Positions 1,299 through 58,372 of a stretch of DNA of 64,000 nt are shown piece after piece. The stretch covers positions 183-64,182 of the forward strand of contig QFOX01000004.1 in the NCBI GenBank assembly GCA_003241645.1. The letters are read 5' to 3'. The stretch comes from Azospirillum brasilense. GTDB lineage: Bacteria > Pseudomonadota > Alphaproteobacteria > Rickettsiales > UBA3002. Positions within the stretch are counted from its first letter, which is position 1, and every line of letters starts with the position of its first letter. Made by a program: the position numbers and the translations under genes. The notes below the pieces were generated by a model. It was not told where the DNA came from. It searched no databases and was given only the letters and a program-made list of their open reading frames with translations.

Positions 1299-1309
1299 GA
1301 TTATACCTC

Positions 1310-1412
1310 GTCATTCCAGCGGAAGCTGGAATCCATGAATGGGTGTGCGCCTGCGGCGCAGTGCGCATGGATGCCGGATCGGCACGCGCTGCGCGCATTG
1401 GTCCGGCATGAC
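1310..1412. repeat. 103-bp compound hairpin repeat (GTCATYCC...ATGAC family, subtype D)
   Basis: gtcattccagcggaagctggaatccat hairpin, then gcgcagtgcgc, then ggatgccggatcggcacgcgctgcgcgcattggtccggcatgac. Its reverse complement aligns along its whole length with 54522..54628. Confidence 0.85.
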
Positions 1413-3022: not shown

Positions 3023-4021
3023 CTACGCCGCCTCCTGCGTTTGGCTTTGCACCCACGCTTCGCAGCAGGCTTTCGCCATGGCGCGCACGCGGCCGATATA
3101 GGCGGCGCGCTCGGTCACGCCGATAACGCCGCGCGCATCCAGCAGGTTGAAACGGTGCGATGCCTTGATGCACTGGTCGTAGGCGGGCAGGGCGAGGGTC
3201 GCGCTGCGCGCATTGCTGTGCGCCAGCAGGCGTTTGCATTCGGCCTCGGCGGCATTGAACTGCTCGAACAGCTGCGCGGTGTCAGCCGCCTCGAGGTTGT
3301 AGGCGCTGAACTCGACCTCGTTCTGCTTGAACACGTCGCCGTAGGTGAAGTGAGTGGGGAGTGGGGAGTGGGGAGTGGTGGGTGTTGATGCACTGCCTTG
3401 CGTAGCGCCATCGCTGCGCGAGCCGCTGGCGGCGGGGGGGAGCGAAGCGTGGGGGGTAAGGCCCCCCTCAGGTACAAAATTCCACCCCAGGTCGTACACA
3501 TTCTCAACACCCTGAATGTACATGGCGAGGCGCTCAAGCCCATAGGTCAGCTCGCCGGAGATGGGGCTGCATTCGATGCCGCCGACCTGCTGGAAGTAGG
3601 TGAACTGGGTGACTTCCATGCCGTCGCACCAGACTTCCCAGCCAAGGCCCCAGGCGCCCAGCGTGGGGCTTTCCCAGTCGTCTTCCACGAAGCGGATGTC
3701 GTGCTTTTTGGGGTCGATGCCCAGCTCCACCAGCGAATCGAGGTACAGCTGCTGGATGTTGTCGGGCGAGGGTTTCAGGATCACCTGGAACTGGTAGTAA
3801 TGCTGCAGGCGGTTGGGGTTCTCGCCATAGCGGCCATCTTTCGGGCGGCGCGAAGGCTGCACATAGGCGCAGTTCCACGGCTTGGGGCCCAGCGTGCGCA
3901 GGGTGGTGGCCGGGTGGAACGTGCCTGCCCCCACTTCCATGTCATAGGGTTGCAGGATCACACAGCCCTGACGCGCCCAGTAGTTCTGGAGGGTCAGGAT
4001 AATATCTTGGAACGATTTCAT
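3023..4021 (-). CDS. glyQ: Glycyl-tRNA synthetase alpha subunit carrying an in-frame repeat insertion
   Basis: [42 protein letters not shown]... is the canonical GlyQ. An extra ~40 residues lie between VYDLGWN and FTYGDVF. Confidence 0.95.
3352..3379. repeat. Tandem heptamer (gagtggg)x3 plus one imperfect copy inside glyQ
   Basis: Read directly: gagtggg gagtggg gagtggg gagtggt. It encodes part of [12 protein letters not shown] on the minus strand. Confidence 0.9.
3385..3471 (-). repeat. 87-bp GC-rich palindromic repeat, family A, copy in glyQ
   Basis: The reverse complement ctgaggggggccttaccccccacgcttcgctcccccccgccgccagcggctcgcgcagcgatggcgctacgcaaggcagtgcatcaa matches 13154..13239 at 80 of 87 positions without gaps (hand alignment). 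Confidence 0.9.
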
Positions 4022-10835: not shown

Positions 10836-10984
10836 GTCATCCCGGAACATTTTTCAGGAGAAAAATTTCTCCGGGATCCAGACCTCACGGCGCTCAGCAG
10901 AGCGCCGTCGTCAAAAAAGTCTGCTGACTTTTTTACCGTGGATTCCCCTATGATTTCGCCTGCTGGCGAAATCCGGGGAATGAC
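10836..10984. repeat. 149-bp three-hairpin MITE-like element (family C) between etfB and etfA
   Basis: gtcatcccgg...ccgggatcc hairpin, a central cggcgct/agcgccg hairpin, and gattcccc...ggggaatgac. About 80% identical to 14481..14630. Same architecture as 34136..34283. Confidence 0.85.
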
Positions 10985-11004
10985 AATTGTTGAAGGAGTT
11001 TAAC

Positions 11005-12405: not shown

Positions 12406-14160
12406 ATGAACACCGCCCCGGACCGCCTGAAATTAGCCCTCGCGCAGATGAACCCCACCGTGGGCGACCTTGCGGGCAACGCGCTGGCCATTGTGCGCAC
12501 GGCGCAGGAAGCCGCCGCGCATGGCGCGGATCTGGTGCTGTTCCCCGAAATGGCGCTGACCGGCTACCCGCCGGAGGATCTGATTCTGGTGCCGGCCTTC
12601 CGCCAGGCCGCGTGGGACGCGGCGCGCCAGATCGCGAAGGATACGCAATCGCTGCCGTGCGACCTCATCTTCGGCAATTTGTGGGAAGAGGGCGCGGCGA
12701 TTTACAATGCCTCGGTGCTGGCCAGCGGCGGGCGCTTAAGCCTGCTGCGCGCCAAGCACGCGCTGCCGAATTACGGCGTGTTCGACGAAATGCGCGTGTT
12801 CGCCCCCGGCCCGGAGCCGGAAGTGGTGGAGTGGCGCGGCCTGAAATTGGGCCTGCTGATTTGCGAAGAGGTCTGGCAGCCGGGTGCAGGCGTGGCGCTG
12901 GCGCAGGCGGGCGCCGAACTGCTGCTGGTGCAGAATGCCAGCCCCTACCACATTGGCAAGGCCAGTGAACGCAAAGCCGTGGTGGATGCGGTAGTGAAGG
13001 CGACCGGCCTACCGCTGGTGTACCTGAACCTCGTGGGTGGGCAGGACGAGCTGGTGTTCGATGGCCGCTCCTACGCCGTCGGGGCCGACGGGGCCGATGC
13101 CGCGCGGCTGCCCGCCTTCTGCGAAAGCCTTGCGGTGCTGGAATGGAAGAAAACTGAGGGGGGCCTTGCCCCCCACGCCTCGCTTCCCCCCGCCGCTAGC
13201 GGCTCGCGCAGCGATGGCGCTACGCAAGGGAGCGCATCACGTTGGGTATGTGTTTCTGGCCCTATGGAGCCCGTGCGCGGCGACGAAGAAACGATCTACC
13301 ACGCGCTGGTGTTGGGCCTGCGCGATTACGTGCGCAAGAATGGCTTCCCCGGGGTGGTGCTGGGGCTTTCCGGCGGCATTGATTCGGCGTTGTCGGCCGC
13401 CATCGCGGTGGATGCGCTAGGCGCGGATAAGGTGCTCGGCCTGCGGCTGCCCAGCCCCTACAGCTCGGCCGATAGTCTGGAAGACGCACAGGCGCTGGTG
13501 GAATTGCTGGGCATGCAGACCCATACCGTATCCATTGAGCCGGGCATGCAGGCGGCCAACGCTGCGCTTGCGCCGTTATTCGCCGGTCGCGCCCCCGACA
13601 CGACCGAGGAGAATATCCAAGCCCGCCTGCGCGGCCTGACGCTGATGGCGATGAGCAACAAGTTCGGCCACATGCTGCTGACCACGGGCAATAAGTCTGA
13701 GATGTCGGTGGGCTATGCCACGCTGTATGGCGATATGGCGGGTGGTTTTTCGGTGCTGAAGGACGTGTACAAAACCACCGTGACCCGGCTTTCCAGCTGG
13801 CGCAATGGCTTTGCCGACATCGCGCGGCTGGGGCTGCTGGGGCCTGCGGGCCCGGTCATGCCGGAGCGCAGCATCACCAAGCCGCCAAGTGCCGAGCTGC
13901 GGCCCGGCCAGTTGGATCAGGATTCGTTGCCGCCCTATGCCGTGCTGGATACGGTGCTGCGCGGGTTGATCGAGCGGCAGCTTTCCGTGCATGAGTTGAT
14001 CGCCGAGGGCATGGAGCCCGCCGTGGTGGAAAAGGTCGCCAAGCTGGTGTGGGCGGCGGAATATAAACGCCGCCAAAGCGCGCCGGGCGTGAAGATCACG
14101 CCCATGGCGTTCGGCCGCGACCGCCGTTGGCCCATCACCAACCGCTGGAAATTCCAGTAG
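12406..14160 (+). CDS. nadE: Glutamine-dependent NAD+ synthetase carrying an in-frame repeat insertion
   Basis: N-terminal CN-hydrolase domain (LKLALAQMNPTVGDLAGN). C-terminal PP-loop LGLSGGIDSAL. The insertion [27 protein letters not shown] sits in the inter-domain linker. Confidence 0.95.
   Translation: MNTAPDRLKLALAQMNPTVGDLAGNALAIVRTAQEAAAHGADLVLFPEMALTGYPPEDLILVPAFRQAAWDAARQIAKDTQSLPCDLIFGNLWEEGAAIYNASVLASGGRLSLLRAKHALPNYGVFDEMRVFAPGPEPEVVEWRGLKLGLLICEEVWQPGAGVALAQAGAELLLVQNASPYHIGKASERKAVVDAVVKATGLPLVYLNLVGGQDELVFDGRSYAVGADGADAARLPAFCESLAVLEWKKTEGGLAPHASLPPAASGSRSDGATQGSASRWVCVSGPMEPVRGDEETIYHALVLGLRDYVRKNGFPGVVLGLSGGIDSALSAAIAVDALGADKVLGLRLPSPYSSADSLEDAQALVELLGMQTHTVSIEPGMQAANAALAPLFAGRAPDTTEENIQARLRGLTLMAMSNKFGHMLLTTGNKSEMSVGYATLYGDMAGGFSVLKDVYKTTVTRLSSWRNGFADIARLGLLGPAGPVMPERSITKPPSAELRPGQLDQDSLPPYAVLDTVLRGLIERQLSVHELIAEGMEPAVVEKVAKLVWAAEYKRRQSAPGVKITPMAFGRDRRWPITNRWKFQ
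13154..13239 (+). repeat. GC-rich palindromic repeat, family A, copy in nadE
   Basis: ctgaggggggccttgccccccacgcctcgcttccccccgccgctagcggctcgcgcagcgatggcgctacgcaagggagcgcatca. Same frame and orientation relative to its host gene as the glyQ copy. Confidence 0.9.
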
Positions 14161-14480: not shown

Positions 14481-14630
14481 GTCATCCTCGAAAAATTTTC
14501 AGCAGAAAATTTCTTCGGGGATCCAGACCACACGATGGCCAGTAGGCCATCGTCGTCAAAAAATATCTTCTGACATTTTTTGCGTGGATTCCCCTATGAT
14601 TTTGCCTGCTGGCAAAATCCGGGGAATGAC
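14481..14630. repeat. 150-bp three-hairpin MITE-like element (family C) upstream of gltX
   Basis: gtcatcctcg...cggggatcc, a central cgatggcc/ggccatcg hairpin (compensatory changes versus the etfBA copy), and gattcccc...ggggaatgac. Confidence 0.85.
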
Positions 14631-14659
14631 GATACGGAAGAGGCCTTAGAGGATTTTTT

Positions 14660-16006: not shown

Positions 16007-16011
16007 TGCCC

Positions 16012-16361
16012 GTCATTCCAGCGAAAGCTGGAATCCATGAGGCATGATGCAGCACTCCTACCTGTATATCATGGCAAGCAAGCTGCATGGTACACTCTAC
16101 ATTGGGGTGACCGCCGATTTGGTAAAGCGCGTGTATGAGCATCGTACTGGGATGGTTGCAGGGTTTACCAAGAAATACCACGTGCACATGCTTGTATATT
16201 ATGAGATGCACGAAGATATAACGCAGGCCATCCAGCGCGAAACGCAAATGAAGGCGTGGAAGCGAAGGTGGAAAATTGAACTTATTGAGAAGCAGAATCC
16301 AGCATGGGAAGACCTGTATGCGTCCATTCTCTGATTGGATTCCAGCTTTCGCTGGAATGAC
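16012..16361 (+). mobile_element. Candidate minimal mobile unit: GIY-YIG gene bracketed by perfect 26-bp inverted hairpin repeats
   Basis: 16012-16037 gtcattccagcgaaagctggaatcca and 16336-16361 tggattccagctttcgctggaatgac are exact reverse complements. The unit fills the gltX-cysS gap and its interior is AT-richer. Confidence 0.5.
16044..16334 (+). CDS. GIY-YIG nuclease family protein (YhbQ/UPF0213-like, nuclease domain only)
   Basis: SYLYIMASKLHGTLYIGVTADLVKRVYEHRTG...QRETQMKAWKRRWKIELIE. GIY/YIG, Arg and Glu positions are as in the family. Confidence 0.85.
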   Translation: MMQHSYLYIMASKLHGTLYIGVTADLVKRVYEHRTGMVAGFTKKYHVHMLVYYEMHEDITQAIQRETQMKAWKRRWKIELIEKQNPAWEDLYASIL

Positions 16362-16367
16362 GGTACG

Positions 16368-17750
16368 ATGATCAAACTTTCCAACACCCTGACGCGCGGC
16401 GTGGAGCCGTTTGCCCCACTCGACCCTGCGCATGTAAAAATGTATGTGTGCGGACCGACCGTGTATGCGCGCCCGCATATCGGCAATGCGCGCTCGGTGG
16501 TGGTGTATGACGTGCTGGCGCGGCTGCTGCGCCACGACTTCCCGAAGCTCACCTTCGTGCGCAATATTACGGATGTGGACGATAAAATTAACGCGGCTGC
16601 CATCGAGCGCGGCATCTCCATTCAGGCGCTGACCGACGAGGTGACCGCGCAGTTCCACGCCGATATGGGTGCATTGAATTGCGCCAAGCCGGACGTGGAG
16701 CCCAAAGCCACCGAACACATCGCGCAGATGATCGCGATGATCGAAACGCTCATCGTGCGCGGCCATGCCTATGCAGCGCAGGGCCATGTGCTGTTCGACG
16801 TGCAGAGCAACCCGGATTATGGCGTGCTCAGCCGCCGCAACGCGCGGGACATGATCGCCGGTGCGCGCGTGGAAGTGGCGCCTTACAAAAAATACCCCGG
16901 CGATTTCGTGCTGTGGAAACCCGCCAGCGAGAAAGACGACGCGAGCAGCAAGTTCGACTCGCCATGGGGCGTGGGCCGCCCCGGCTGGCACATCGAATGC
17001 TCTGCCATGAGCGCCACGCATTTGGGCCATGATTTCGACATCCATGGCGGTGGGTCGGACCTGATGTTCCCGCATCATGAGAACGAGATTGCACAAAGCC
17101 GGTGCGCGCATGCGGGCTCGCATTACGCGAAATACTGGGTGCATAACGGCTTTCTTACCGTCAACGGCGAGAAGATGAGCAAGAGCCTCGGCAACTTCAT
17201 CACCGTGCATGATTTGTTGGAGCGCGGCGTGAAGGGCGAGGTGATCCGCTTCGCGCTGCTTTCCACGCGCTACAACGAACCGCTCGATTGGAGCGACAAG
17301 CTGCTCGCCGATGCGGGCAAGGTGATGGATAAGCTCTATCGTAAAACTACCGATGTCATTCCCGCGCAGGCGGGAATCCATGATATAGGCGTGGCAGCGG
17401 AGGCAATCATGGATCCCGGCCTTCGCCGGGATGACGTATCTAAAGAACTTATGGCTGCCTTGCGCGATAACCTGAACACGCCGAAAGCACTGGCCATCCT
17501 GCAAACGCTGGAAGGCGACGAACTGCTGGCTTCAGCCCAGTTCATGGGCCTGCTGCAACAGCCTGCCGACCAATGGTTCCAGGGCGAAGCGGGCGACGAT
17601 GCCGCCGCCATTGAAGCGCAGATCGCCCAACGCAACGCCGCCAAGAAAGCGCGTGACTTCGCCACGGCTGATGCGATCCGCGAGGCGCTGAAGGCGCAGG
17701 GCATCCTGCTCGAAGACGGGCCGCAGGGCACCAGCTGGCGCCGCGCGTAA
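16368..17750 (+). CDS. cysS: Cysteinyl-tRNA synthetase carrying an in-frame repeat insertion
   Basis: MIKLSNTLTRGVEPF..CGPTVYARPHIGNARS (HIGH) and KMSKSLGN. An 81-bp hairpin repeat is translated as VIPAQAGIHDIGVAAEAIMDPGLRRDD. Confidence 0.95.
   Translation: MIKLSNTLTRGVEPFAPLDPAHVKMYVCGPTVYARPHIGNARSVVVYDVLARLLRHDFPKLTFVRNITDVDDKINAAAIERGISIQALTDEVTAQFHADMGALNCAKPDVEPKATEHIAQMIAMIETLIVRGHAYAAQGHVLFDVQSNPDYGVLSRRNARDMIAGARVEVAPYKKYPGDFVLWKPASEKDDASSKFDSPWGVGRPGWHIECSAMSATHLGHDFDIHGGGSDLMFPHHENEIAQSRCAHAGSHYAKYWVHNGFLTVNGEKMSKSLGNFITVHDLLERGVKGEVIRFALLSTRYNEPLDWSDKLLADAGKVMDKLYRKTTDVIPAQAGIHDIGVAAEAIMDPGLRRDDVSKELMAALRDNLNTPKALAILQTLEGDELLASAQFMGLLQQPADQWFQGEAGDDAAAIEAQIAQRNAAKKARDFATADAIREALKAQGILLEDGPQGTSWRRA
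17355..17435 (+). repeat. 81-bp double-hairpin repeat (family D) inside cysS
   Basis: gtcattcccgcgcaggcgggaatccat ... ggatcccggccttcgccgggatgac. Exactly 27 codons. Confidence 0.9.
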
Positions 17751-24708: not shown

Positions 24709-24790
24709 GGCGAGGCCAGTAGGCCGAGCGAGCCATCAGCCCGCGAAGCGGCGCACCATTGGGAGCGCAGGAGCGCGAGCAGGGTGCAGC
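24709..24790. repeat. Family B-related repeat in the rpsD upstream region
   Basis: The core ggccgagcgagccatcagcccgcgaagcggcgc (24722-24754) matches 42782-42814 inside rnpB. Confidence 0.75.
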
Positions 24791-39113: not shown

Positions 39114-39998
39114 ATGCCGCCCATTGCCATTGCCGCCGCTCTACTCGTTGCCCTGTGCTGGGGCGGCAATTTCTCGGCCAGCAAATACGCGATGATGGAT
39201 TTCCCGCCGTTCCTCACGGTCATCCTGCGGTTCGTGTGCGTCAGCGTGCTGCTTGCGCCCATCGCGCTGCGCCAGCGCCCATGGCCGCGCCTGCGCGACA
39301 TGGCGTTCATTGCGCTCACGCTCATCGTGCTGCATTTCGCGCTGATCTTCGTGGCCATGCAGATGGGGCTCACCATCACCTCGGTGATCGTGGCAACACA
39401 AATGGGCGTGCCGTTCTCGTGCATGGTGTCGGCCGCGTTGTTCAAGGATTATCTCGGCCCGTGGCGCAGCATGGGGTTGATGGTGGCCTTCATGGGCGTG
39501 CTGATGGTGGCGCTGACCAAGAATGCTTCCGACCATTGGGGCGCGTTCATGCTGGCCATGTTCGGCGCGTTCGCGTGGTCGAGCGCGAACATCTACATGA
39601 AACGCATGAAGCCCACGCCCGTGGCCTCGCTGCTGTTCTGGCCGGGCGTGCTGTCGCTGCCGGTGCTGCTGGTACTTACGCTGATCTTCGAGCAGGACCA
39701 GATCGCCATCATCCGCAACGCGGCATGGACCAGCTGGGCAGGCATTGCCTACAGCACGGTGCTGTCGTCGCTGGTGGGCTATGGGCTGTGGAACTGGCTG
39801 ATCGCCAAATACCCGCTCAGCCAGGTGGTGCCGTTCTCGCTGTGCGTGCCCATCGCGGGCATTGCCGGGGGTGTGCTGCTGTTCAACGAGCCGCTGACCG
39901 GGCAGATCCTCGGTGGCGCCGCGCTGACTATCGTGGGCGTGGGCATCATCGCCATCCGCCGTCCGAAAATGGCGGAGCTGGGCAAAGATGCAAGTTAG
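39114..39998 (+). CDS. EamA/DMT family transporter
   Basis: About 10 TM helices. AAALLVALCWGGNFSASKY at the N-terminus and a duplicated EamA-like layout. Confidence 0.8.
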   Translation: MPPIAIAAALLVALCWGGNFSASKYAMMDFPPFLTVILRFVCVSVLLAPIALRQRPWPRLRDMAFIALTLIVLHFALIFVAMQMGLTITSVIVATQMGVPFSCMVSAALFKDYLGPWRSMGLMVAFMGVLMVALTKNASDHWGAFMLAMFGAFAWSSANIYMKRMKPTPVASLLFWPGVLSLPVLLVLTLIFEQDQIAIIRNAAWTSWAGIAYSTVLSSLVGYGLWNWLIAKYPLSQVVPFSLCVPIAGIAGGVLLFNEPLTGQILGGAALTIVGVGIIAIRRPKMAELGKDAS

Positions 39999-40000
39999 AT

Positions 40001-40098
40001 GGGAAGGGGGCGTGCCGCCGCCCTTCGCACCTTCGGTGCTGACCCCCTCGTTTCGCTGCGCTCACGGCTCGCGCAGCTTCGGCGCTACGCAAGGGTTC
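40001..40098 (+). repeat. Family A variant repeat (intergenic)
   Basis: gggaagggggcgtgccgccgcccttcgc...ccccctcgtttcgc...ggctcgcgcagcttcggcgctacgcaaggg. Aligns with 58276..58372 and with the 3' half of the glyQ and nadE copies. Confidence 0.8.
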
Positions 40099-42387: not shown

Positions 42388-42592
42388 GGCGGGGCCTTCT
42401 AACGGTAATCTGCCTTAGAAGTGTGAATATTGCGTTACAATCGCCGCACGGGGCGCTAGATTACCCTGACCAGATGGCCGGATGGCTGCGGGGAATGCTA
42501 TGTGTTGCTGAGGAGCGAAGAGCTCCAACGCAAGAAAAACGGGTTTTGTTTTTGTGCATGGACGGCCAGCAGGCCGGCCCTGCCAAGAGCAC

Positions 42593-42638
42593 GCGAAAGC
42601 GGCGCGAAGCATCGCACAGTATGTGCGATCTGCGGAGC
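42593..42638 (+). repeat. Family B hairpin repeat inside rnpB helix P3
   Basis: gcgaaagcggcgcgaagcatcgcacagtatgtgcgatctgcggagc. The stem is atcgcac/gtgcgat. Confidence 0.85.
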
Positions 42639-42765
42639 AAAAAAATCCAACATCTCCCCGAGGAAAGTCCGGGCTCCACGGAACACGGTGGCGGGTAACG
42701 CCCGCCCGGCGCAAGCCGAGAGACAGTGCCACAGAAACAAACCGCCTTTTTCGCGCGGTACTGGC

Positions 42766-42848
42766 GGCAGCGAGGGCAGCAGCCCGAGCGAGCCATCAGC
42801 CCGCGAAGCGGCGCGAAGCATCGCACAGCATGTGCGATTTGCGGAGCA
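42766..42848 (+). repeat. Family B repeat (long form) inside rnpB helix P12
   Basis: ...gcccgagcgagccatcagcccgcgaagcggcgcgaagcatcgcacagcatgtgcgatttgcggagc. The 3' part matches 42593..42638 and the 5' part matches 24722..24754. Confidence 0.85.
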
Positions 42849-43124
42849 CCAATAAGGTAAGGGTGAAAAGGTGGGGTAAGAGCCCACCGCGCCGCTGGTA
42901 ACAGCGTGTGGCCAGGCAAACCTCACCGGGAGCAAGACCAAATAGGCGTGCAGTGGTTCAATCCACGGGCCGTTCCGGGCCGCACGCGGGTAGGTTGCTT
43001 GAGCCATGCAGCAATGCATGGCCTAGATGAATAGCCATCCATCCCAGCAATGGGGGGACAGAACCCGGCTTACAGGCCATCTGGTGTTAACGCTTTGTTC
43101 ATGCGTGGCTGCTAACCTCGGCCT

Positions 43125-54509: not shown

Positions 54510-54521
54510 TCAGCGACGCAC

Positions 54522-54628
54522 GTCATCCCGGACCAATGCGCGACGCGCATGCCGATCCGGGATCCATGCGAACTGTGCGCAGCACACAAATAGAGTCATT
54601 AGGAGATTCCTGCGTTCGCAGGAATGAC
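54522..54628. repeat. 107-bp compound hairpin repeat (family D) in the ftsW-murG gap
   Basis: gtcatcccggaccaatgcgcgacgcgcatgccgatccgggatccatgcg...gattcctgcgttcgcaggaatgac. It is the inverted counterpart of 1310..1412. Confidence 0.85.
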
Positions 54629-57389: not shown

Positions 57390-58269
57390 CGACCTTCCCG
57401 AGATCCGCGGGCAATACCGCTTCGATGCACCGTTGGCCAAGACCACCTGGTTCCAGGTGGGCGGCGCGGCGGATGTGCTGTTCAAGCCGGCCGACACGCA
57501 AGACCTTGCCCATTTCCTGAAGCATAAACCCGCCGATCTGCCCGTGACCGTGCTGGGGGTGGGCAGCAACCTCATCATTCGCGATGGCGGCATTGAAGGC
57601 GTGGTTATCAAGCTGGGGCGCGGCTTCACGCAGGCGGAGCTTCGCGATGGCGAGATCGAGGCGGGTGCCGCGCTGCTGGATGTGCATCTGGCCCGCTTCA
57701 GTGCCGATCAGGGCTGCGCCGGGCTTGAATTCTTCGCGGGCATTCCGGGCACGGTTGGCGGTGCGCTCGCCATGAACGCCGGGGCCTATGGCCGCGAAAC
57801 GAAGGATTGCCTGCTGCGCGCCGAAGCGGTGACGCTGGACGGCACCATCGTGATGCTGGAGCTGGACGAGATGCGCTACAGCTACCGCCATTATGGTGGG
57901 CCCGCGGGCCTTATTTTTACGCGCGCATGGTTCGCCACCACCCCGGATGCGCCGGAAGCCATTCACGCGCGCATCGCTGAAATTCAGGCGAGCCGCGAAG
58001 CCACCCAGCCCGTGCGCGAACGCACCGGCGGCAGCACCTTCAAAAACCCCGAGGGCCACAAAGCATGGCAACTGGTGGATGCGGCAGGCTGCCGCGGCCT
58101 GACCATGGGCGGTGCGCAAATTTCCGACCTGCACTGCAACTTCATGCTCAACACAGGTAATGCGACCGCCGCCGAGCTGGAAGCGCTGGGCGAAGCAGTG
58201 CGCACCCGCGTGAAGCAGCATGCCGGTGTGCAGCTGGAGTGGGAGATCAAGCGATTGGGGCGTTTTTAA
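57382..58269 (+). CDS. murB: UDP-N-acetylenolpyruvoylglucosamine reductase
   Basis: GTG start. [15 protein letters not shown]...VLGVGSNLI...[18 protein letters not shown]...GSTFKNP. Confidence 0.93.
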
Positions 58270-58275
58270 GCCGTG

Positions 58276-58372
58276 TGAAGGGGGCGTGCCGCCGCCCTTC
58301 GCTCGCGAAGGCTCGCTGACCCCCTCGCTTCGCGGCTCGCGCAGCGATGGCGCTACGCAGGCAATGCATCAA
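58276..58372 (+). repeat. Family A variant repeat in the murB-ddl gap
   Basis: tgaagggggcgtgccgccgcccttcgc...ccccctcgcttcgcggctcgcgcagcgatggcgctacgcaggcaatgcatcaa. The 3' 50 nt are near-identical to the glyQ and nadE copies. Confidence 0.85.

What the first reader, a model, noticed from the sequence alone, without database searches (positions are those of the whole stretch)
13154..13239. The same family A repeat is inserted in frame in the NadE inter-domain linker
NadE reads ...LEWKKTE[[27 protein letters not shown]]RWVCVSGPMEPVRGDEE.... This places the insertion between the N-terminal CN-hydrolase/glutaminase domain and the PP-loop synthetase domain. The peptide differs from the glyQ insert at one residue. 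Two unrelated enzymes therefore share a near-identical 27-residue module that derives from DNA-level repeat spread, not from domain shuffling. Both coding copies use the same one of six possible frames. This suggests only that frame is tolerated, or that insertion is oriented.
Basis: partly seen in the sequence, partly recalled or inferred. Interest (0 to 1): 0.7.

Follow-up and report, generated by a model that had tools for sequence, protein, structure and literature searches.

The report
In-frame mobile repeat inside NadE
An 86-base hairpin-rich repeat that normally sits just after genes has also landed in frame in a surface loop of two housekeeping enzymes (NadE and GlyQ) of an uncultured alphaproteobacterium, which resembles the "protein-coding palindromes" long thought peculiar to Rickettsia.

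Summary
Window 13154-13239 (+) in nadE and 3386-3471 (-) in glyQ are 93% identical. Both are in frame and encode peptides that differ at one residue.

Two intergenic relatives lie at about 40003-40091 and 58277-58371. A profile of the family finds 92 copies in 76 stretches of DNA from related alphaproteobacterial MAGs and metagenomes.

Most NadE orthologues lack the segment. Fifteen scattered ones carry it at the same beta-hairpin tip, each next to a relative without it. One filled/empty pair is 97.2% identical.

AlphaFold models the insert as a low-confidence coil between two strands at the boundary of the glutaminase and synthetase domains.

The element sits in 14 sites of 11 protein families, in both orientations and several frames.

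The element is a chain of short hairpins with a core conserved across genera. It has no terminal inverted repeats and no target duplication. Intergenic copies usually start 2-27 nt after the stop codon of a gene on the same strand.

The closest known parallel is the Rickettsia palindromic elements. I file it as a new member of a known kind. The mobilising enzyme is unknown.

The parts
13154..13239 (+). Family A repeat copy in frame in nadE, covering codons T250-S278 (peptide [28 protein letters not shown])
   Evidence: I1; nhmmer 13150-13226, 53.1 bits
12406..14160 (+). nadE ORF, glutamine-dependent NAD+ synthetase, 584 aa. It is identical to NCBI PZP86790.1.
13158..13174 (+). Hairpin H1: GGGGGGC, loop CTT, GCCCCCC
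   Evidence: Sequence. In the family, 64 of 73 copies have an H1 stem of at least 7 bp, with 34 different 5' arms.
13186..13191 (+). C-tract that mirrors the 3' arm of H1 across the family
   Evidence: alignment
13192..13203 (+). Hairpin H3: GCCGC, TA, GCGGC
13204..13226 (+). Conserved core: TC, then variable hairpin H4 (GCGC-AGCGATG-GCGC), then TACGCA
13227..13239 (+). 3' tail AGGGAGCGCATCA. It is shared with the glyQ copy, the 58-kb copy and L158.
3386..3471 (-). Family A copy in frame in glyQ, falling between residues 192 and 193 of E. coli GlyQ
3023..4021 (-). glyQ ORF, 332 aa, identical to PZP86779.1
40003..40091 (+). Intergenic family A copy with an extra hairpin H2. It starts 5 nt after the TAG stop codon (39996-39998) of the upstream gene on the same strand.
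58277..58371 (+). Intergenic family A copy. It starts 8 nt after the TAA stop codon (58267-58269) of the upstream gene on the same strand. It shares the GAT-loop H4 and the TGCATCA tail with the two coding copies.

Best explanation
Family A is a small, non-coding, hairpin-rich dispersed repeat of about 75-100 nt, of the REP/RPE type, in an uncultured lineage of Alphaproteobacteria. Its MAGs are deposited as 'Rickettsiales bacterium', 'Azospirillum' and similar names.

Its usual home is the DNA just after the stop codon of a gene on the same strand. It spreads and is homogenised at the DNA level. This happens by an unidentified trans-acting enzyme, by ectopic gene conversion, or by both.

Now and then a copy ends up inside a gene. 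It survives only where three conditions hold: its length keeps the frame, the frame read has no stop codon, and the site is a permissive surface loop. In NadE that site is the tip of a beta-hairpin at the boundary between the glutaminase and synthetase domains. There the copy is translated as a 28-residue Gly/Ala/Ser/Pro-rich, probably disordered loop that the enzyme tolerates.

Shown: the repeat family, the in-frame state, presence/absence among orthologues, the loop location, and use of several frames and both orientations elsewhere. Inferred: mobility and its mechanism, translation of the insert, and near-neutrality.
For: - The window holds four copies, two coding and two intergenic.
- The core is found in 32 stretches of 5 GTDB MAGs and in about half of 120 metagenome stretches.
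- A family profile finds 92 copies in 76 sources.
- The architecture is shared, and H1 is kept through compensatory variants. A stem of at least 7 bp occurs in 64 of 73 copies against 6% of shuffles, with 34 distinct arms.
- Verified in-gene copies occupy 14 sites in 11 protein families: NadE, GlyQ, PriA (3 sites), PurH, CarB, CarA, MutY, MnmC (2 sites), LeuRS, an inositol-monophosphatase-family protein and YggS. Nine are in plus and five in minus orientation.
- Most NadE orthologues lack the segment. Fifteen carry it at the same site and none of these is sister to another on the NJ tree.
- The filled L034 and empty L035 nadE genes are 97.2% identical. The flanking 150-nt windows show 0 and 3 mismatches. 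Gene order (ETF genes, nadE, gltX) is conserved, which supports orthology.
- The same hairpin tip holds unrelated repeat-like inserts in other lineages. The GlyQ site holds dozens of unrelated inserts.
- AlphaFold models residues 254-275 at pLDDT below 50, as coil between strands 241-250 and 279-284.
- The H4 loop GCGCAGCGATGGCGC is shared by the nadE, glyQ and 58-kb copies of the window. Among all other copies aligned or listed it occurs only in L104. This shows that coding and non-coding copies evolve as one DNA family.
- Precedent: the RPEs of Rickettsia (PMC10969869; PMC2229807).
Against: - There are no terminal inverted repeats and no target-site duplication.
- Junctions between filled and empty sites are not clean. 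The empty site reads GAGAAG-GCGAGTAAG-GGCTGG. The filled site reads GAGAAA-AAATTACC[element]ATTCAAGAATGGT-GGCTGG.
- No transposase was found. A RAYT-like motif is absent from all fetched loci.
- All 15 filled NadE alleles share one orientation and one frame. That fits few origins plus loss or allelic exchange better than 15 independent hits.
- The core GCGGCTCGC...GCTACGCA is conserved across genomes of 49-64% GC, which hints at a function beyond selfish spread.
- The ratio of 5 synonymous to 1 non-synonymous change between the nadE and glyQ copies hints at constraint on the peptide.
- The folding energies of the four window copies are no better than those of shuffles (z from -0.7 to +0.1).
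Confidence: 0.78

Rival explanations
1. There was one ancient insertion, or very few, in NadE. It has been inherited vertically and kept similar to other copies by ectopic gene conversion. The patchy distribution comes from repeated, nearly precise loss or from homologous exchange of filled and empty alleles between related lineages. The element need not be mobile today.
For: - All filled NadE alleles share site, orientation and frame.
- The window and L158 (P0004) inserts are 81% identical, which equals the nadE background of 81.7%. They also share the same junction layout.
- The glyQ inserts of the window and L033 lie at the same site. They are 92% identical over the 5' 53 nt, against 85.5% for the gene.
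- Divergence between L034 and L035 is mosaic, as expected with frequent recombination.
Against: - This needs about 40 losses on the NJ tree, against 15 gains.
- The window nadE copy is closer to the glyQ-type copies (90-93%) than to other NadE inserts (77-81%).
- The family occupies many other genes in other frames, so new in-gene copies do arise.
Confidence: 0.35
2. The element is first of all a functional structured RNA or DNA signal, for example a 3'-end mRNA stabiliser, a translation-termination modulator or a protein-binding site. Its in-ORF copies would then be kept for an RNA-level effect, such as ribosome pausing at a domain boundary or mRNA processing, rather than merely tolerated.
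For: - The core is conserved across genera with different GC content.
- In 38 of the 72 copies outside long ORFs, a gene on the same strand ends 2-27 nt upstream. Its stop codon is TAG in 24 of these 38, against a 36% background (p about 6e-4).
- Regions between convergent genes are enriched (22 of 50) and regions between divergent genes are depleted (3 of 50).
- H1 is kept by compensatory changes.
- The C-tract covaries with H1, which suggests alternative pairing.
Against: - There is no Rfam match.
- Folding energy is not better than that of shuffles.
- Close relatives do without the nadE copy.
- In-gene copies occur in both orientations, which an RNA-level role would not predict.
- Avoidance of promoter regions is also typical of selfish REP-like repeats (my own knowledge).
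Confidence: 0.15
3. The shared 27-28 residue module is a functional peptide, such as a binding or localisation motif, acquired by both enzymes and selected at the protein level.
For: There are 5 synonymous and 1 non-synonymous difference between the nadE and glyQ copies. The motif EGG(L/I)xPxAxLxPxASGS..T(Q/H) recurs in NadE orthologues.
Against: - The peptide conservation mirrors DNA conservation that is equally present in intergenic copies.
- The same DNA is read in other frames and in antisense in other proteins, which gives unrelated peptides.
- The module is low-complexity and is modelled at pLDDT below 50.
- Close relatives lack it.
Confidence: 0.05
4. The insert is an assembly or binning artefact, that is, repeat-induced misassembly of a MAG contig.
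For: The window comes from a MAG contig of 65,230 bp whose deposited name, 'Azospirillum brasilense', is doubtful.
Against: - The ORF is intact and in frame.
- The same kind of insert at the same site appears in at least 14 independent assemblies from JGI, ENA, NCBI and Logan.
Confidence: 0.01

Closest known systems
Rickettsia palindromic elements (RPE-1 to RPE-10; Ogata et al. 2000 and 2002, as summarised in PMC10969869 and PMC2229807)
   Same: - They are dispersed non-coding repeats found both between genes and in frame inside conserved housekeeping genes.
- The encoded peptides sit where the fold tolerates them.
- Presence and absence vary among related species.
- RPEs also sit in RNase P RNA. 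In this window another repeat (family B) sits in a loop of the RNase P RNA gene.
   Different: - RPEs are 105-146 bp, AT-rich, form one long stem-loop with about 12-bp terminal inverted repeats, and are confined to Rickettsia.
- Family A is about 75-100 nt and GC-rich. It is a chain of short local hairpins (H1, optional H2, H3, H4) without terminal inverted repeats.
- Family A occurs in genomes of 49-64% GC from lakes, soils and wastewater.
- I made no sequence comparison with RPEs.
REP/BIME elements of gamma-proteobacteria, mobilised by RAYT (Y1 HUH transposases)
   Same: - They are short GC-rich hairpin repeats that lie after gene 3' ends and avoid promoter regions.
- They have no target duplication.
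- They carry a conserved GTAG next to a hairpin. Here the complementary strand reads TGCGTAG-CGCC...GGCG.
- Adjacent inverted pairs occur, as in L004.
   Different: - REPs are nearly always extragenic.
- No RAYT-like gene was found in any fetched locus.
- Family A is a longer composite with a core conserved across genera, whereas REPs are usually species-specific (my own knowledge).
Bacterial MITEs with in-frame gene fusions (Coxiella QMITEs in PMC5896051; ERIC, the 107-bp Correia element and YPAL in PMC2229807)
   Same: They are small non-autonomous repeats with open frames that are occasionally fused in frame to host genes.
   Different: Those elements have terminal inverted repeats and usually TA target duplications. 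Family A shows neither.

Membership tests
Rickettsia palindromic elements (RPE) | Dispersed repeat with both intergenic copies and in-frame copies inside conserved protein genes | tested here: met
Rickettsia palindromic elements (RPE) | One long stem-loop formed by pairing of the 5' and 3' ends (terminal inverted repeats of about 12 bp), size 105-146 bp | tested here: not met
   The element is a chain of local hairpins of about 75-100 nt with no pairing between its ends. The feature definition comes from PMC2229807.
Rickettsia palindromic elements (RPE) | Sequence homology to one of the RPE-1 to RPE-10 consensus sequences | not tested
GC content and length make homology unlikely.
Rickettsia palindromic elements (RPE) | The inserted peptide lies at the protein surface and is compatible with the fold | tested here: met
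   In the NadE AlphaFold model the insert is coil at pLDDT below 50 at a beta-hairpin tip, and the rest of the fold is confident. The GlyQ model is too poor to use (mean pLDDT 58).
Canonical bacterial MITE | Terminal inverted repeats and a target-site duplication (often TA) | tested here: not met
   Filled versus empty nadE sites show no duplication, and the element ends (TGAAGGGG... and ...GCTACGCA or TGCATCA) are not inverted repeats.
REP / BIME (RAYT-associated) | Short imperfect palindrome with an adjacent conserved GTAG tetranucleotide | tested here: inconclusive
   The complementary strand carries GTAG next to hairpin H4, but the element holds three or four different hairpins.
REP / BIME (RAYT-associated) | A cognate RAYT (Y1 transposase) gene in the genome, typically flanked by REPs | tested here: inconclusive
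   No HUH...Y..NP motif occurs in any ORF of the 155 loci then held or of the window. Whole genomes could not be scanned.
REP / BIME (RAYT-associated) | Extragenic location after gene 3' ends, with promoter regions avoided | tested here: met
   The upstream neighbour is the end of a gene on the same strand in 42 of 59 copies. Of 50 copies with both neighbours called, 22 lie between convergent genes and 3 between divergent genes.
IS200/IS605-derived palindrome-associated elements (PATE) | No inverted repeats or duplications, subterminal hairpins, insertion 3' of a fixed tetra- or pentanucleotide, and precise excision | tested here: inconclusive
   The absence of inverted repeats and duplications and the frequent gain or loss fit. 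No fixed target motif could be defined from the left flanks.

The most novel reading that the evidence does not exclude
Family A may not be just selfish DNA. It could be a cross-genus conserved structured module with a dedicated machinery that inserts it and removes it almost precisely. Its normal role would be at stop codons, in control of the mRNA 3' end or of termination. Inside ORFs it would then act as a reversible in-frame cassette at domain-boundary loops of housekeeping enzymes, modulating translation or folding. That would explain 15 or more gain/loss events at a single NadE codon position, always in the same frame.
Probability: 0.1. Interest if true: 0.85.

Novelty: new member of a known kind. 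Interest (0 to 1): 0.52.

Why it matters
In-frame 'protein-coding palindromes' have been treated as a peculiarity of Rickettsia. Here an unrelated, GC-rich repeat family does the same thing in an uncultured alphaproteobacterial lineage.

It is found in at least 11 families of essential enzymes. The same NadE and GlyQ loops are filled and emptied again and again across dozens of lineages.

That offers a natural experiment in three areas: which protein loops tolerate insertions, how new peptide segments enter conserved proteins, and how REP-like repeats move. On the practical side, such inserts distort orthologue alignments and gene-length checks in MAG annotation.

Tried and rejected
- Exact look-up of the NadE product including its stop codon found nothing. 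The protein was then found as P0001 / PZP86790.1.
- Rfam gave no family at any copy, either at gathering scores or at E-values up to 10.
- A composite five-frame peptide profile searched against 5.8 billion proteins gave no hit with E up to 10.
- A 30-aa module profile searched against 1.84 billion cluster representatives gave one hit: P0241, a 118-aa hypothetical protein of a 'Rickettsiales' MAG, E = 3.6e-4. Short low-complexity peptides are below the power of these searches. The frame and host survey was therefore done on DNA.
- A regular-expression search for a RAYT-like HUH...Y..NP motif in all loci found nothing.
- The inverted pair of copies in L021 brackets only an EamA-type transporter-like ORF and an amidase-like ORF (my reading of the sequences), not a transposase.
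- RNAalifold on the family alignment gave only a weak consensus of -7.1 kcal/mol. It preferred pairing of the H1 G-run with the downstream C-tract. I did not build a covariance model.
- The GlyQ AlphaFold model is too poor (mean pLDDT 58) to place that insert.
- A full-text literature search for the core sequence found only unrelated papers.
- A recombination-tract explanation for the L034/L035 difference was rejected. The 150-nt windows on either side have 0 and 3 mismatches.
Full report
**1. The observation**

The window (62% GC) carries a 584-aa ORF at 12406..14160 (+). Pfam finds CN_hydrolase at residues 9-243 and NAD_synthase at 298-557. The closest solved structures are glutamine-dependent NAD+ synthetases (4F4H, 3N05, 5KHA).

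Between the two domains the ORF reads [39 protein letters not shown]. The DNA at 13154-13239 is 93% identical, in inverted orientation, to 3386-3471 (I1). That second copy lies in frame in glyQ (3023..4021, minus strand).

A 41-nt core with up to 3 mismatches occurs only at these two places, with none in 100 shuffles. The peptides differ at one residue. Of the six DNA differences, five are synonymous.

**2. It is a DNA repeat family**

- Two intergenic relatives lie at about 40003-40091 and 58277-58371.
- The core GGCTCGCGCAGC-NNN-GGCGCTACGCA occurs in 32 stretches of five GTDB genomes. All are MAGs, deposited as 'Rickettsiales bacterium' (4) or 'Azospirillum sp.' (1), with locus GC of 49-64%.
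About half of them are clear members.
- An alignment of 73 distinct copies shows a common architecture. In order, the parts are:
  - H1, GAAGGGG(nn)-loop-(nn)CCCCTTC.
  - An optional hairpin H2 of arbitrary sequence.
  - TGA followed by a C-tract that mirrors the 3' arm of H1.
  - H3, CCGC-loop-GCGG.
  - CTC.
  - A variable hairpin H4 (GCGC..GCGC, GCGCC..GGCGC or GCC..GGC).
  - TACGCA.
- H1 has a stem of at least 7 bp in 64 of 73 copies, with 34 different 5' arms, against 6% of shuffled controls.
- Rfam has nothing at these places.
- An nhmmer profile finds 92 copies in 76 sources.

The window itself is a contig of an NCBI MAG. NadE is PZP86790.1 and GlyQ is PZP86779.1, both deposited as 'MAG: Azospirillum brasilense'. 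Its nearest relatives are labelled Rickettsiales, Alphaproteobacteria or Pseudomonadota bacterium, so the deposited name is doubtful.

**3. NadE orthologues**

Among the best 120 relatives (60-100% identity) the usual length is 555-558 aa. Fifteen carry a family A peptide of the form EGG(L/I)xPxAxLxPxASGS..T(Q/H). It always lies between W-E-K and G-W-x-C, and always in the same orientation and frame.

On a neighbour-joining tree none of the 15 is sister to another. That means 15 gains, or one gain and about 40 losses. The tree has no support values, and the database is clustered at 90% identity.

The syntenic loci L034 (filled, P0029) and L035 (empty, P0062) have nadE genes 97.2% identical. 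The 150-nt windows on either side of the site show 0 and 3 mismatches, so the event is recent and local.

The junctions are not clean. The empty site reads GAGAAG-GCGAGTAAG-GGCTGG. The filled site reads GAGAAA-AAATTACC[element]ATTCAAGAATGGT-GGCTGG. There is no target duplication and there are no terminal inverted repeats.

The closest relatives of the window protein (P0002 and P0003, 87-88% nucleotide identity) are empty. P0004 (L158, 81.7%) is filled with an insert 81% identical to the window's.

The same hairpin tip holds unrelated repeat-like inserts in other lineages, for example PSPLAGEG..., HPNPLPQGE... and PPLTSPPLAGG.... A second beta-hairpin tip near residue 95 holds 'family B' peptides of the form EPAMSPRSGAQGRS.

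**4. GlyQ**

The insert falls between residues 192 and 193 of E. coli GlyQ (7EIV). Among 120 orthologues this site holds dozens of unrelated inserts. Family A appears only in the window and in P0122.

P0122 lies on the same JGI contig as the filled NadE P0023 (L033). The 5' 53 nt of the two glyQ inserts are 92% identical, against 85.5% for the gene. That is compatible with common descent.

The H4 loop and the 3' tail of the window glyQ copy tell a different story. They match the window's nadE and 58-kb copies, not the L033 orthologue. Among all other copies aligned or listed, this H4 loop (GCGCAGCGATGGCGC) occurs only in L104. So coding and non-coding copies within one genome share derived characters. 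That requires either recent spread or ectopic gene conversion.

**5. Frames and hosts**

I took every profile hit that has an open frame of at least 60 codons on both sides, then checked the candidates with Pfam. This gives 14 in-gene sites in 11 protein families.

| Orientation and frame | Sites |
|---|---|
| Plus, GGC-TCG frame (as in the window) | NadE, GlyQ, PriA (three sites), PurH |
| Plus, other frames | CarB, MutY, YggS |
| Minus | an inositol-monophosphatase-family protein, LeuRS (editing domain), MnmC (two sites), CarA |

Among the 73 mostly intergenic copies, the numbers that are stop-free in the five usable frames are 41, 39, 34, 31 and 24. The sixth frame is always closed by the TAG in the reverse complement of GCTACGCA.

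That frame is still the commonest, at 6 of 14 sites. About 14% of the copies sampled by DNA pattern lie in verified genes (12 of 85).

**6. Structure**

AlphaFold with a 70-sequence alignment gives a mean pLDDT of 81.5. It models strands 241-250 and 279-284 with the insert between them as coil. Residues 254-275 have pLDDT below 50.

The site is thus a hairpin tip at the C-terminal edge of the glutaminase domain, just before the synthetase domain. The GlyQ model is too poor to use (mean pLDDT 58).

**7. Where intergenic copies sit**

- The neighbour on the 5' side of the element is the end of a gene on the same strand in 42 of 59 cases.
- In 38 cases that stop codon lies 2-27 nt before the G-run of H1.
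- The stop codon is TAG in 24 of those 38, against a 36% background (p about 6e-4).
- Of 50 copies with both neighbours called, 22 lie between convergent genes and 3 between divergent genes.

This resembles REP elements. I leave the TAG excess and the covariation of the C-tract with H1 unexplained.

**8. Mechanism**

The best reading is a REP/RPE-like non-autonomous repeat. Its in-gene copies are filtered by selection for three things: an intact frame, no stop codon, and a permissive loop. The product is a disordered, tolerated loop.

The following fit a single-strand 'peel-and-paste' (Y1/HUH) system or template-switch and gene-conversion copying:
- the lack of inverted repeats and target duplications;
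- the hairpin-rich ends;
- the bias in orientation relative to the neighbouring gene;
- the frequent, nearly precise gain or loss.

However, no such enzyme gene was seen in the fetched loci. This step is inference.

For NadE specifically, the uniform frame and orientation argue for few origins followed by loss, allelic exchange and conversion, rather than 15 independent hits. I cannot separate these alternatives with the present data.

**9. Comparison with known systems**

The phenomenon matches the Rickettsia palindromic elements. Those occupy 44 sites in R. conorii, nearly half of them in frame in ORFs, and also sit in the RNase P and tmRNA genes.

The parallel extends to this window. Its RNase P RNA (42616-43088) carries an insertion of about 93 nt in an apical loop. 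That insertion is made of repeat family B plus a duplicate of the gene's own 5' end.

Membership in the RPEs or in canonical MITEs fails on the defining long terminal palindrome, the inverted repeats and the target duplication. Membership in REP/RAYT is undecided. A full-text search for the core sequence found no description of it.

I therefore rate this a new member of a known kind. It is a new, GC-rich, multi-hairpin family showing RPE-like in-frame colonisation of housekeeping genes outside Rickettsia.

Noticed in passing
window 42616-43088 (insert about 42744-42840): The RNase P RNA gene is 473 nt against a 367-position Rfam model. It carries an insertion of about 93 nt in an apical loop (after model position 136). 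The insertion consists of repeat family B plus a duplicate of the gene's own 5' end (42806-42848 matches 42597-42639). RPEs of Rickettsia also sit in RNase P RNA.
   Followed up: partly
window 24710-24754, 42560-42600, 42770-42814: Repeat family B has the consensus GCGAGGSCAGYAGSCCGAGCGAGCCATCAGCCCGCGAAGCGGCGC. Translated as EPAMSPRSGAQGRS, it is inserted in frame after about residue 95 of NadE (a second beta-hairpin tip) in orthologues P0003, P0013, P0039, P0083 and P0098. A variant also occurs in PriA of L053 and L111.
   Followed up: partly
window 3350-3385 (-): In glyQ the family A copy is directly followed by a CCCCACT-type microsatellite that codes [12 protein letters not shown]. The total extra segment in GlyQ is therefore 37 aa.
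   Followed up: no
window 10836-10987 and 14481-14633: Two direct repeats of about 150 nt (77-88% identical) contain short inverted repeats such as ATCCCGGA...TCCGGGAT. One lies just upstream of etfA and the other just upstream of gltX, so together they bracket etfA, a small ORF and nadE.
   Followed up: no
window 1309-1338, 16011-16040, 17354-17383; also 1356-1413 / 54521-54578: Further small palindromic repeat families are present, for example CGTCATTCCAGCGGAAGCTGGAATCCATGA, which from memory resembles Neisseria dRS3. The contig is unusually rich in different short repeats.
   Followed up: no
family A copies in L001-L155; window 39996-40003 and 58267-58277: In 38 of the 72 copies outside long ORFs, a gene on the same strand ends 2-27 nt upstream. 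Its stop codon is TAG in 24 of these 38, against a 36% background. Regions between convergent genes are enriched and regions between divergent genes are depleted.
   Followed up: partly
family A alignment; window 13158-13191: The C-tract upstream of H3 covaries with the 3' arm of H1 (GAAGGGA types have CCCTTC, GAGGGAAC types have CTCCCTC). This suggests alternative pairing or an internal duplication. It is unexplained.
   Followed up: partly
GlyQ orthologues P0121-P0240, at the site equivalent to window residues 187/225: This single GlyQ loop carries dozens of unrelated 15-50 aa inserts in different lineages. Many look repeat-derived, for example CQVTSDKESAPVTRHPSPV and PSPPAGEGW.... It is a general insertion hot spot.
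   Followed up: partly
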